Below, one piece after another: positions 55,070-58,167 of a stretch of DNA of 64,000 bases. The notes beneath the pieces are model-generated. The model was not told the DNA's origin. It did no database searches and saw nothing but the letters and a program-made list of their open reading frames with translations. A program made the position numbers and the translations under genes. Origin of the DNA: Escherichia coli O157:H7. Lineage in GTDB: Bacteria; Pseudomonadota; Gammaproteobacteria; Enterobacterales; Enterobacteriaceae. The stretch lies in NCBI RefSeq assembly GCF_013167455.1, contig NZ_CP038328.1. The stretch is one strand, 5' to 3'. Positions within the stretch are counted from its first letter, which is position 1; every line of letters starts with the position of its first letter.

Positions 55070-55249
55070 GATAAATGGCACTCCTTCGGTTAGTGAAACG
55101 AGAAAACCAGATAAAGTTCGATTGCGGCCTGGCACAGGGGCGCTAATTATACTCATCTCTGCGCCGCTGGGGAGGGGAAATTTAGGGGTAATAGTAATAA
55201 ATTGTATGCAAAAGCCACGCAAAAAGCATGGCTCTGAATATTTTTGCAC

Positions 55250-56593
55250 TTAAATATGATGAATAATCACTTTGTTGCCCCCCTCGCTTTTCGCTTCGCG
55301 TAAGGCTTTATCTGCTTCCGTCATGACAAGCGAGATATTACGCGTGTCACCCGTTGAAAAAACTGTGCCAATACTGATGGTCATTTGTTCAGGAACATCA
55401 TATCTGTTACTAAAGCCGGTCAGGAGTTCGACATTTTTACGCATACGTTCCGCAATGATTTTTGCCTGGGCACTATTGAGTTCGGTAAATAGCAAGCCAA
55501 ACACCTCACCCTCCAGTCGCGCTAAAATATCATCGGGGCGGATGCTTTGCTGGATAATATCGACAATTGAAACCAGCACTTTATCACCCACACGATGTCC
55601 CCATTGGGCATTGATGCGTTTGAACTGATTAATATCAACCAGCATGACACAGAAGTCCTTAACAACAGGTCGCGACAATAATGACTCTACGCTGTTGAAA
55701 AAGTAGCGCCGATTATAAATATTGGTCAGCACATCATGAACTGCCAGTTTGCTGGAGAGTTGCAGCTCCTGAAAAATGTTATAAATCAGAAAAGACACAA
55801 CAAACAGTTTACTGGAGACTTCAATCCCGCGACTGATATACCAGATGGTATAATTATACTCATCCAGAGTCAGTAGAAGTAAGTTGCAGCATAGCGATGC
55901 CAGACATAATAATGCTATTAACGGCCATAGTTCGCTGGCTAATCGTGTACGCATGATAATAAAGAACAGTAAAAATGCCCACAGACAAACCAATATTTTT
56001 GTATAGTTGATTCCCCAGGTCGCAGTATGATTGTCCGGACAGTAATCGACGACATACAAAGAATAGTCAGCGTTATAACTGCTCAGATTGTGTGCCAGAA
56101 GGGGAAAAACTAAAAAAGGGATCAGCGCCAGCAACAGAATGCCAGTTTTTTTCTTATTGTTGTCAAGGATGTTGTCTTTTCCATAACAAAAGAGCGCCAG
56201 CGAGGTTAAACAAATAAAACTGAGTTGGCGGAAAATATAGAAAATAGAAACATCATTCGACTTTGTCTGGATCAGTGTACTGCCGTTAATTGGTTTATGG
56301 ATAATTACAATGGTTTCAACTAAATAGATAAGGCCACTTAAAAATGCAAGGCTTAAAATGAGTGTTGGTAAAATTTGTTTGTTAGTGAAATATTTCATTA
56401 ACATGAAAAGAAAAATGACGGCGTTAAGGAAAAACAAAGCCACAACAACCATCAGGTAATTCATCTGTGGGATGAGTTTTACATTTGTGTTTTCGTTATA
56501 TAAGGTAGTAATGCAAAATAAAATTAACGTCAGCAATAAACTGAAAATAAAAAAGCTTTGAGCTTTTAATTTTTGTGTACCCATAGAAACCAT
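55250..56593 (-). CDS. cdgI: Degenerate-GGDEF membrane protein CdgI (YeaI); 447 aa from the first ATG
   Basis: Eight predicted TM helices followed by a GGDEF-like domain whose signature is EGEVF; the frame is open for about 70 codons upstream with no ATG, GTG or TTG, and the ATG at 56593 has a poor Shine-Dalgarno. Confidence 0.75.
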   Translation of the reverse strand: MVSMGTQKLKAQSFFIFSLLLTLILFCITTLYNENTNVKLIPQMNYLMVVVALFFLNAVIFLFMLMKYFTNKQILPTLILSLAFLSGLIYLVETIVIIHKPINGSTLIQTKSNDVSIFYIFRQLSFICLTSLALFCYGKDNILDNNKKKTGILLLALIPFLVFPLLAHNLSSYNADYSLYVVDYCPDNHTATWGINYTKILVCLWAFLLFFIIMRTRLASELWPLIALLCLASLCCNLLLLTLDEYNYTIWYISRGIEVSSKLFVVSFLIYNIFQELQLSSKLAVHDVLTNIYNRRYFFNSVESLLSRPVVKDFCVMLVDINQFKRINAQWGHRVGDKVLVSIVDIIQQSIRPDDILARLEGEVFGLLFTELNSAQAKIIAERMRKNVELLTGFSNRYDVPEQMTISIGTVFSTGDTRNISLVMTEADKALREAKSEGGNKVIIHHI

Positions 56594-56871
56594 AAAAAGG
56601 AGAGCAATGTGAGTGCTGGATTTTATTGATGGCAGAGATATATAGTTTTGACCAGGATCAATTTTCGTTAACGATAAAAAATATTTAAAGAATAACCCCA
56701 GGGAAATACGTGTTGACAGAATAATTTTTCCGAATGATTGTTTTCTGGAACTAAATTGTGTAAAGGTTATGCTGTCATATTTAAAGCGATTGTAAGCTAA
56801 TGTATGTAATAAATGAGATAACTTACAGTGAGCTAAAAATCAGCCAGGCGATAATGACCCGGCTGATAGTT

Positions 56872-58167
<1,296 letters not shown>

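What the first reader, a model, noticed from the sequence alone, without database searches (positions are those of the whole stretch)
55250..56871. cdgI (yeaI) has no canonical start codon for a protein longer than 447 aa
The first ATG (56593) has essentially no Shine-Dalgarno. The frame stays open upstream to a TGA around 56846-56848, and that stretch contains no ATG, GTG or TTG in frame. My recollection is that K-12 CdgI is 491 aa, which would place the start 44 codons upstream at 56725-56723, where this sequence reads ATT. Either the true start is the SD-less ATG, or this allele carries a start-codon substitution (ATG to ATT), a coding-strand G-to-T like the dgcP change.
Basis: partly seen in the sequence, partly recalled or inferred. 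Interest (0 to 1): 0.35.

Follow-up and report, generated by a model that had tools for sequence, protein, structure and literature searches.

The report
cdgI start codon: ATT allele, doubtful annotation
This E. coli O157:H7-type cdgI gene does read ATT where K-12 has its annotated ATG start, but that start is probably wrong in all E. coli: the 44 "extra" codons hold a conserved, FNR-bound promoter, so the protein most likely starts at the downstream ATG and the change is harmless.

Summary
cdgI (yeaI) lies on the minus strand. Its first in-frame ATG/GTG/TTG is ATG 56593, giving 447 aa. The frame is open upstream to a TGA at 56842-56840. Codon 56725-56723 is ATT where K-12 b1785 (491 aa) has ATG. 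The ATT allele is exact in 319 of 5426 complete E. coli genomes, mostly O157:H7. NCBI's annotation pipeline calls it either 491 aa from ATT or 447 aa.

The annotated K-12 start is itself doubtful:
- Every ortholog outside E. coli proper is 443-448 aa and starts at the equivalent of M45 or M48.
- Three of those orthologs have stop codons or frame-breaking indels in the "extension".
- Among six E. coli alleles the extension shows 8 nonsynonymous and 0 synonymous changes. The 447-codon body shows 3 and 33 (p = 9e-7).
- O157 and K-12 bodies are identical in protein.
- Inside the extension is a conserved class II FNR promoter layout: TTGAT-N4-GTCAA at 56661-56648, 22 nt, then TAAAAT at 56625-56620. 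Myers et al. 2013 found FNR bound there in vivo and labelled it "within yeaI".

The most likely start is therefore ATG 56593 or ATG 56584, and the G-to-T change is a neutral polymorphism in 5' regulatory DNA. Loss of a K-12-type long isoform is not excluded. This is an ordinary allele and an annotation problem.

The parts
55250..56593 (-). cdgI (yeaI) core ORF, 447 aa plus stop, with a MASE4 membrane domain and a degenerate GGDEF domain. The A-site reads EGEVF (55513-55499) and the I-site reads RPDD (55540-55529).
   Evidence: ORF list. Pfam MASE4 (1.4e-48) and GGDEF (9e-45). Motif coordinates. Protein identical to the K-12 body, with 0 nonsynonymous and 8 synonymous differences.
56591..56593 (-). 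ATG 'M45', the first canonical in-frame start. It has no Shine-Dalgarno.
   Evidence: It is ATG in most Escherichia orthologs, GTG in E. albertii, and absent in the two 445-aa Citrobacter-like orthologs (L018, L019).
56582..56584 (-). ATG 'M48', the only start codon conserved in all ten orthologs. A weak GGU lies 4 nt upstream.
   Evidence: (-2.2 kcal/mol).
56594..56725 (-). The 44-codon 'N-terminal extension' of the 491-aa annotation. It most likely is 5' regulatory DNA, not coding sequence.
   Evidence: 8 nonsynonymous and 0 synonymous changes among six E. coli alleles, against 3 and 33 in the body. Stops and indels in orthologs. It lies outside the MASE4 match, which starts at residue 88 of 491.
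56723..56725 (-). ATT codon at the position of K-12's annotated ATG start. The change is G to T on the coding strand at 56723.
   Evidence: Found in 319 of 5426 genomes.
56699..56719 (-). Two further differences from K-12: codon 3 CTG (56719-56717; K-12 has CAG, the B2-type allele of strain Seattle 1946 has CGG) and codon 9 CTG (56701-56699; K-12 has ATG).
56648..56661 (-). FNR box TTGATCCTGGTCAA, a 9/10 match to TTGAT-N4-ATCAA. It is a perfect match in the distant orthologs.
   Evidence: The same 14-mer is listed at U00096.2:1868473 as 'Within yeaI', PatSer score 15.15, at an FNR ChIP-seq peak, in Myers et al. 2013 Table S6 (PMC3688515).
56620..56625 (-). -10 hexamer TAAAAT (TAGAAT in four orthologs), 22 nt downstream of the FNR box. 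That spacing puts the box centre at -41.5.
   Evidence: The 22-nt spacing is kept in 9 of 10 orthologs and is 21 nt in E. albertii, while the spacer sequence itself diverges.
56612..56615 (-). Predicted transcription start. It is inferred from geometry and has not been mapped. The leader would be about 21 nt to ATG 56593 and about 30 nt to ATG 56584.
   Evidence: Inference. The predicted leader is essentially unstructured (z = -0.36).
56725..56738 (-). Conserved block ATCATTCGGAAAAA. It ends at the first base of the ATT/ATG codon and contains the weak GGA 'Shine-Dalgarno' of the annotated start. Its function is unknown.
   Evidence: Conserved in Escherichia and Citrobacter-like orthologs, while the following 'TG' is not. 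Coordinates.
56737..56764 (-). Sigma-70-like site TTTACA-16-AACAAT (9/12). The TTTACA is conserved in most orthologs.
   Evidence: This is a consensus match only.
56791..56804 (-). RstA box TACATTAGCTTACA. It overlaps a TACAAT hexamer at 56794-56789, which may be the -10 of an upstream promoter.
   Evidence: RstA gel-shift on the yeaI promoter and yeaI up-regulation in an EDL933 rstA mutant (PMC6824119). A sigma-70 ChIP peak lies near here in K-12 (Myers Table S2).
56840..56842 (-). In-frame TGA that closes the upstream open frame.
56839..56867 (-). Intrinsic terminator of yeaH.
   Evidence: Conserved in all orthologs.

Best explanation
The functional cdgI reading frame starts at the downstream ATG (56593, or 56584 three codons later) in O157:H7 and probably in all E. 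coli. The 44 codons that K-12 annotation adds upstream are not constrained coding sequence. They are the gene's regulatory region and contain a class II FNR-type promoter: an FNR box at 56661-56648, a -10 hexamer at 56625-56620, and a predicted start near 56613. Transcripts from that promoter cannot encode the extension.

On this view the O157 G-to-T change (ATG to ATT at 56725-56723) is a lineage-specific, effectively neutral polymorphism in 5' non-coding or unconstrained DNA. The 447-aa (or 444-aa) MASE4-GGDEF protein is still made. Translation would start without a Shine-Dalgarno on a short, unstructured, U/C-rich leader.

Shown here or in cited papers:
- the allele and its frequency;
- the lack of coding-type constraint on the extension;
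- the start positions of the orthologs;
- the conservation and geometry of the FNR box and -10 hexamer;
- FNR occupancy in vivo in K-12.

Inferred only:
- the transcription start;
- FNR-dependent activation;
- which of the two ATGs is used.
For: 1. **Ortholog lengths.** All homologs outside E. coli proper are 443-448 aa. They align from M45 or M48. These include E. albertii, three other Escherichia-like lineages and Citrobacter-like proteins. The five fetched orthologs whose loci reach both neighbouring genes lie between yeaH and dgcJ.
2. **The extension frame is broken elsewhere.** It carries stop codons and frame-breaking indels in E. albertii, P0007 and P0012.
3. **Substitution pattern.** Among six E. 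coli alleles the extension has 8 nonsynonymous and 0 synonymous changes, spread over codon positions [2,4,2]. The body has 3 and 33, at positions [2,2,32]. Fisher p = 9.3e-7.
4. **The O157 body is intact.** It is identical in protein to K-12, with 8 synonymous and 0 nonsynonymous differences.
5. **Conserved promoter layout.** The FNR box, an invariant 22-nt spacing and TA(A/G)AAT are conserved across ten orthologs while the surrounding sequence diverges. In E. albertii the -10 variant TAGAAT creates an in-frame stop yet remains a good -10.
6. **Experimental FNR binding.** Myers et al. 2013 Table S6 lists exactly this 14-mer as 'Within yeaI' at an FNR ChIP-seq peak.
7. **Polymorphism within E. 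coli.** The promoter half of the extension matches at 99% identity or better in 4210 of 5418 genomes. The common variant seen in fetched alleles falls in the non-specific N4 spacer. The 5' half matches at that level in only 308.
8. **Domain boundary.** MASE4 begins 43 residues after M45.
9. **Transcription in O157.** yeaI is transcribed and regulated in EHEC EDL933 (PMC6824119).
Against: - **The frame is unusually open.** In E. coli proper it has no stop for 54 codons (K-12) to 82 codons (O157) upstream of M45, in 31% GC sequence. Shuffles give p of about 0.03 and 0.004. The other two frames have 5 and 6 stops.
- **ATG1 is common and has the best Shine-Dalgarno.** About 94% of E. coli genomes carry ATG1, and its SD is the best of the three candidates, though weak (-3.5 kcal/mol).
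- **An upstream promoter is plausible.** An RstA box, a TACAAT hexamer and a sigma-70 ChIP peak lie upstream of ATG1. Transcripts from there would carry ATG1.
- **No FNR effect seen so far.** Myers et al. found no FNR-dependent expression change for yeaI in glucose minimal medium (Table S9).
- **No direct mapping data.** No transcription-start, ribosome-profiling or N-terminal data for yeaI could be found.
- **Weak motif on its own.** An FNR-like box with one mismatch is not rare by chance in 64 kb: 6 found against 2.8 expected.
Confidence: 0.63

Rival explanations
1. Two isoforms. K-12-type strains make a 491-aa long form from ATG1 on transcripts from an upstream, RstA-repressed promoter. They also make the 447-aa form from the FNR promoter or by internal initiation. 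In O157 the ATG-to-ATT change, together with loss of the codon-9 ATG, removes the long form or cuts it to a few percent through AUU. Only the short protein is left.
For: - The frame is open, and ATG1 has a weak GGA Shine-Dalgarno in about 94% of genomes.
- An RstA box, a TACAAT hexamer and a sigma-70 peak lie upstream of ATG1.
- AUU initiates at roughly 0.02-3% of AUG (bioRxiv 10.1101/063800).
Against: - The extension's amino-acid sequence is unconstrained (8 nonsynonymous, 0 synonymous) and absent from all other species. Any long form would carry a dispensable tail.
- Tagged CdgI was below detection by immunoblot in K-12 under standard conditions, so no isoform has been seen (PMC5635695).
Confidence: 0.25
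2. Start-codon loss that inactivates the gene. CdgI needs the 491-aa start, so O157 is a functional cdgI null. This would be part of the erosion of c-di-GMP signalling genes in EHEC.
For: - There is no canonical start for a protein longer than 447 aa.
- ATG 56593 has no Shine-Dalgarno.
- One O157:H7 genome (PV15-279) also has a 1-nt deletion in the extension.
Against: - The body is intact and identical in protein to K-12, with 0 nonsynonymous and 8 synonymous differences.
- The same ATT allele occurs in non-O157 strains A30 and 1604D011 with an intact gene.
- Orthologs in other species function with the short form only.
- The MASE4 domain is complete in the short form.
Confidence: 0.06
3. ATT is a genuine, regulated AUU start codon, as the NCBI pipeline's 491-aa model WP_024165563.1 implies. 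It would be an IF3-sensitive start like those of infC and pcnB.
For: - The NCBI pipeline annotates the ATT start in 39 of 40 sampled ATT genomes.
- AUU can initiate at low level.
Against: - The AUU is specific to one lineage (5.9% of genomes) and derived from ATG.
- Its Shine-Dalgarno is weak.
- The downstream peptide is unconstrained.
- Only infC and pcnB are confirmed AUU starts in E. coli.
- The annotation is most simply explained as homology transfer from the K-12 model (inference).
Confidence: 0.03

Closest known systems
E. coli K-12 cdgI/yeaI (b1785, NP_416299.1, 491 aa as annotated)
   Same: It is the same gene in the same yeaG-yeaH-cdgI-dgcJ context. The 447-aa body is 100% identical in protein. 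The FNR box, -10 hexamer and both downstream ATGs are identical.
   Different: K-12 has ATG at codon 1, CAG at codon 3 and ATG at codon 9. The window has ATT, CTG and CTG. K-12 also has an in-frame TAA ten codons upstream of ATG1, where O157 has CAA.
Class II FNR-activated promoters of E. coli (for example ydhY, narG and yfgF/pdeF in Myers et al. 2013 Table S6)
   Same: The box is TTGAT-N4-(A/G)TCAA with a high matrix score (15.15). A -10 hexamer follows 22 nt later, which places the box centre at -41.5. FNR occupies the site in vivo.
   Different: The transcription start and FNR dependence are not demonstrated. Myers et al. saw no FNR-dependent change in glucose minimal medium. The site is catalogued as intragenic because of the 491-aa annotation.
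Start-codon misannotation of a GGDEF gene in K-12: dgcF/yneF (Richter et al. 2014, PMC4287979)
   Same: This is a precedent in the same protein family. Comparison with pathogenic strains showed that the K-12 start annotation was wrong.
   Different: In yneF the cause is a 5' deletion in K-12 that truncates the gene. Here the K-12 model is probably too long, and the pathogen allele simply lacks the spurious ATG.
AUU-initiated genes infC and pcnB
   Same: There is an annotated ATT start codon in an E. coli gene.
   Different: In infC and pcnB the AUU is experimentally confirmed; in infC it is also used for autoregulation (established knowledge). Here it is a derived allele in 5.9% of genomes, upstream of unconstrained sequence.

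Membership tests
MASE4-GGDEF proteins (CdgI/DgcT/DgcX group) | N-terminal MASE4 integral membrane domain followed by a GGDEF domain | tested here: met
   Pfam MASE4 at 1.4e-48 (residues 88-319 of the 491 form) and GGDEF at 9e-45. Both lie entirely within the 447-aa form.
MASE4-GGDEF proteins (CdgI/DgcT/DgcX group) | CdgI-specific: degenerate A-site with an intact RxxD I-site five residues upstream | tested here: met
   The sequence reads RPDD...EGEVF at 55540-55499. This agrees with the description in PMC5635695.
Class II FNR-dependent promoter | FNR box TTGAT-N4-ATCAA | tested here: met
   TTGAT-CCTG-GTCAA at 56661-56648 is a 9/10 match. The match is 10/10 in three distant orthologs.
Class II FNR-dependent promoter | Box centred near -41.5, overlapping the -35 region, with a -10 hexamer at -12 to -7 | tested here: inconclusive
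   The geometry fits exactly: a 22-nt gap to TAAAAT, conserved in 9 of 10 orthologs. The transcription start has not been mapped, and no data were found.
Class II FNR-dependent promoter | FNR occupancy in vivo | tested here: met
   This comes from the literature and not from my own experiment. Myers et al. 2013 Tables S5 and S6 report an FNR ChIP-chip and ChIP-seq peak at this site in K-12. It has not been tested in O157, but the sequence is identical.
Class II FNR-dependent promoter | FNR- and anaerobiosis-dependent transcription | tested here: inconclusive
   Myers Table S9 places yeaI among FNR peaks with no FNR-dependent expression change in glucose minimal medium. Sigma-70 occupancy near yeaI is higher anaerobically (Table S2).
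Genes with a genuine AUU start (infC/pcnB type) | AUU conserved among orthologs and alleles | tested here: not met
   ATT is present in 319 of 5426 genomes, and the rest have ATG. The position is not conserved in other species.
Genes with a genuine AUU start (infC/pcnB type) | Experimentally determined N-terminus or initiation at the AUU | not testable with these tools
   No N-terminomic or initiation-profiling entry for yeaI/cdgI was found.
Pseudogene by start-codon loss | No usable alternative start, and decay of the downstream frame | tested here: not met
   Two in-frame ATGs are used by all orthologs. The O157 body has 0 nonsynonymous changes against K-12. The gene is intact in every ATT genome inspected.
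Protein-coding N-terminal extension | Purifying selection: excess of synonymous changes, third-position bias, frame kept in relatives | tested here: not met
   8 nonsynonymous and 0 synonymous changes at codon positions [2,4,2], against 3 and 33 at [2,2,32] in the body. Stops and indels occur in three orthologs. The only point in its favour is that the frame is open longer than chance in E. coli proper (p 0.03 to 0.004).

The most novel reading that the evidence does not exclude
cdgI is an FNR-activated gene, switched on in anaerobic or gut conditions, whose core promoter is hidden inside the over-long K-12 ORF model. This could explain why CdgI has not been detected under standard aerobic laboratory conditions. 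E. coli proper has additionally gained a young, unconstrained 44-residue N-terminal extension. That extension is translated only from an upstream RstA-controlled promoter. The O157:H7 lineage has therefore lost, or cut to a few percent via AUU, a promoter-specific long isoform while keeping the ancestral short protein.
Probability: 0.2. Interest if true: 0.45.

Novelty: already known. Interest (0 to 1): 0.27.

Why it matters
- **Annotation.** RefSeq currently carries two incompatible models for the same O157 sequence: 491 aa from ATT, and 447 aa. The 491-aa K-12 model is propagated to thousands of genomes. If the start is really M45 or M48, then the protein length is wrong, the 'intragenic' FNR site of Myers et al. 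is really a promoter site, and any construct cloned from ATG1 carries a spurious 44-residue tail.
- **EHEC biology.** The ATT allele should not be counted among the c-di-GMP gene lesions of O157:H7.
- **CdgI expression.** A conserved FNR promoter gives a concrete, testable condition for expression: anaerobiosis. AppY is a possible second input, since its overproduction raised cdgI mRNA 35-fold. Until now the conditions for CdgI expression were described as unknown (PMC5635695).

Tried and rejected
**Searches for direct evidence that found nothing for yeaI/cdgI:**
- N-terminomics (TRAINSPOTTER) supplements.
- The initiation-profiling preprint, for which no supplements were held.
- Cappable-seq on MG1655.
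- The EDL933 transcription-start tables, which list yeaG and yeaJ but not yeaI.
- SMRT-Cappable-seq.
- In vitro run-off transcription sequencing (ROSE).
- Povolotsky and Hengge 2016 and Jonas et al. 2008 are not in the held library. I could not check whether the ATT allele or CsrA control of yeaI is discussed there.

**Computations that gave no support:**
- Rfam at E up to 1 on 56300-57000 gave no RNA family.
- The predicted leader has no significant structure.
- An FNR-like box with one mismatch is not enriched in the window. The case rests on conservation and ChIP, not on the motif match.

**Rejected readings:**
- Sequencing error: the allele is exact in 319 genomes.
- Pseudogene: the body is intact and constrained.
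- Conserved AUU start: not conserved.
- The 466-469-aa homologs (P0002-P0005) as alternative starts: they are internal-deletion variants.

**Excluded data:** strain SCU-308 shows several homopolymer indels that are probably assembly errors, and was left out of the substitution counts.
Full report
**What the window is.** The 1851-base region around the finding is 100% identical to E. coli O157:H7-type chromosomes such as 2017C-4109 and cattle strain 132. It is about 99% identical to K-12 derivatives. It matches 5424 of 5426 complete E. coli genomes. On the minus strand the gene order is yeaH (56872-58155), cdgI/yeaI, then dgcJ.

**Checking the observation.**
- The first ATG/GTG/TTG after a stop in the cdgI frame is ATG 56593, giving 447 aa.
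- Upstream the frame stays open to TGA 56842-56840. No canonical start occurs in between.
- Codon 56725-56723 is ATT.
- In MG1655, b1785 is annotated as 491 aa and starts with ATG at exactly that position.
- O157 also differs at codon 3 (CAG to CTG) and codon 9 (ATG to CTG). The second in-frame ATG of K-12 is therefore missing too.
- ATG 56593 has no Shine-Dalgarno (+2.2 kcal/mol). The ATT/ATG1 site has a weak GGA (-3.5). ATG 56584 has a weak GGU (-2.2).

**How common the allele is.** Nearly all genomes fall into three 5' haplotypes:

| Haplotype (codons 1-3) | Genomes |
|---|---|
| ATG-ATT-CAG | 3280 |
| ATG-ATT-CGG | 1795 |
| ATT-ATT-CTG | 319 |

- The ATT group is almost entirely O157:H7. 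It also includes a few other strains: baboon isolate A30 and pig isolate 1604D011. The latter keeps ATG at codon 9.
- ATG is also present in the closest outgroup, P0007, so ATT is the derived state.
- RefSeq treats the O157 sequence inconsistently. WP_024165563.1 is 491 aa and starts at ATT. WP_000254252.1 is 447 aa, in strain PV15-279, which has a 1-nt deletion in a T-run of the extension.

**Is the 491-aa start real? Comparative evidence.**
- A database search found that every homolog outside E. coli proper is 443-448 aa. This covers E. albertii, three other Escherichia-like lineages at 77-89% identity, and Citrobacter-like proteins at 57-64%.
- These proteins align from M45 or M48. M48 is the only start shared by all of them.
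- I fetched seven of these loci. The five that reach both neighbours lie between yeaH and dgcJ; the contigs for the other two are cut short.
- In the extension frame, E. albertii, P0007 and P0012 have stop codons and frame-breaking indels.
- Among six E. coli alleles the 44 extension codons carry 8 nonsynonymous and 0 synonymous changes, spread evenly over codon positions. The 447-codon body carries 3 nonsynonymous and 33 synonymous changes, 32 of them at third positions. Fisher p = 9.3e-7.
- The O157 and K-12 bodies differ by 8 synonymous and no nonsynonymous changes.
- The Pfam MASE4 match begins at residue 88 of the long form, so the short form contains the whole domain plus a normal short, positively charged N-terminal tail.

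**What the extension contains.**
- Aligning ten orthologs shows one deeply conserved block inside the extension. It is TTGAT-N4-(A/G)TCAA, then 22 nt of divergent sequence, then TA(A/G)AAT.
- In the window these elements are at 56661-56648 and 56625-56620.
- The three most distant orthologs have the perfect FNR consensus TTGAT-N4-ATCAA.
- The spacing puts the box centre 29.5 nt upstream of the first base of the -10 hexamer. That is at -41.5 relative to a start about 7 nt past the hexamer, which is the textbook class II FNR layout (established knowledge of FNR/CRP-family promoters).
- In E. albertii the -10 variant TAGAAT introduces an in-frame stop but is still a good -10. This argues for promoter constraint, not coding constraint.
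- Myers et al. 2013 (PMC3688515) list exactly TTGATCCTGGTCAA at U00096.2:1868473 as 'Within yeaI', with matrix score 15.15, at an FNR ChIP-seq peak (Tables S5 and S6). The position matches the window site once the 1976-nt offset between genome versions is applied.
- Within E. coli the half of the extension from the FNR box to M45 is at least 99% identical to the window in 4210 of 5418 genomes.
- The variant seen in three fetched alleles lies in the non-specific N4 spacer.
- The 5' half matches at that level in only 308 genomes.
- A transcript from this promoter would start near 56613. It cannot encode the extension. Its leader is short and unstructured.

**Caveats.**
- In E. coli proper the frame is open for longer than shuffles predict: p of about 0.03 for 54 codons and 0.004 for 82. 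The other two frames have 5 and 6 stops.
- ATG1 has the best, though weak, Shine-Dalgarno of the three candidates.
- An upstream promoter is plausible. An RstA box (56804-56791) overlaps a TACAAT hexamer. RstA binds the yeaI promoter in EDL933 (PMC6824119). A sigma-70 ChIP peak maps nearby in K-12. Transcripts from there would include ATG1, so a K-12-type long isoform that O157 has lost cannot be excluded.
- Myers et al. saw no FNR-dependent change in yeaI expression in glucose minimal medium (Table S9).
- CdgI protein is below detection in K-12 under standard conditions (PMC5635695).
- I found no transcription-start, initiation-profiling or N-terminal data for this gene.
- AUU initiates at about 0.02-3% of AUG, and only infC and pcnB are confirmed AUU starts. 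The pipeline's ATT start is most simply a homology transfer.

**Verdict.**
- The most likely reading (about 0.63) is that cdgI starts at ATG 56593 or 56584 in all E. coli. On that reading the annotated extension is regulatory DNA with an FNR-bound class II promoter, and the O157 ATT is a neutral polymorphism.
- Loss of a long isoform is the main rival (about 0.25).
- Gene inactivation (about 0.06) and a genuine AUU start (about 0.03) are unlikely.
- This is an ordinary allele of a known gene plus an annotation problem. Its modest value is a re-annotation proposal and a testable suggestion that CdgI is expressed anaerobically.

Noticed in passing
window ~55837-55881 (inside the cdgI body): Two published K-12 data sets point to the same spot about 850-890 nt into cdgI. 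One is a sigma-70 ChIP peak that rises from 15.6 to 408 anaerobically (Myers 2013 Table S2, v2 1869297). The other is an AppY ChIP summit at U00096.3:1871229, with cdgI mRNA up 35-fold (log2 5.1) on AppY overproduction (PMC10057817). This may be an internal or antisense anaerobic promoter.
   Followed up: no
window 56791-56804 (minus strand): An RstA box TACATTAGCTTACA overlaps a TACAAT hexamer (56794-56789) upstream of the ATT codon. This fits the published RstA gel-shift on the yeaI promoter in EDL933. The box is conserved only in E. coli and its closest relatives, unlike the FNR promoter.
   Followed up: partly
window 56725-56738 (minus strand): The block ATCATTCGGAAAAA is conserved from Escherichia to Citrobacter-like orthologs and ends exactly at the first base of the annotated start codon. 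The following 'TG' is not conserved. Its function is unknown; it could be a transcription-factor site or a CsrA-type GGA site.
   Followed up: no
L004 (O157:H7 PV15-279), equivalent to window ~56673-56678: A T6-to-T5 deletion in the extension shifts its frame. The NCBI pipeline then calls the 447-aa form. It could be a real variant or a homopolymer assembly error.
   Followed up: partly
L024 (pig isolate 1604D011), equivalent to window 56699-56725: This is a mixed haplotype, with ATT at codon 1 but ATG kept at codon 9. The strain still has a canonical in-frame ATG 36 codons upstream of M45, which suggests recombination among 5' haplotypes.
   Followed up: no
window 56717-56719 and 56699-56701: Codon 3 of the extension has three different bases at its second position across E. 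coli (CAG, CGG, CTG). Codon 9 has ATG, CTG and CCG. This is unusually high diversity at single sites for E. coli.
   Followed up: partly
window 56839-56867 (minus strand): In the yeaH intrinsic terminator stem, O157 has a G where K-12 has an A, turning one A-U pair into a G-U pair. The hairpin is conserved in all orthologs.
   Followed up: no
window 53579-55249 (minus strand): The dgcJ frame is open for 556 codons from a GTG that abuts the cdgI stop, but the gene is annotated at 496 aa. This is another case in this cluster where the longest ORF exceeds the accepted gene model.
   Followed up: no
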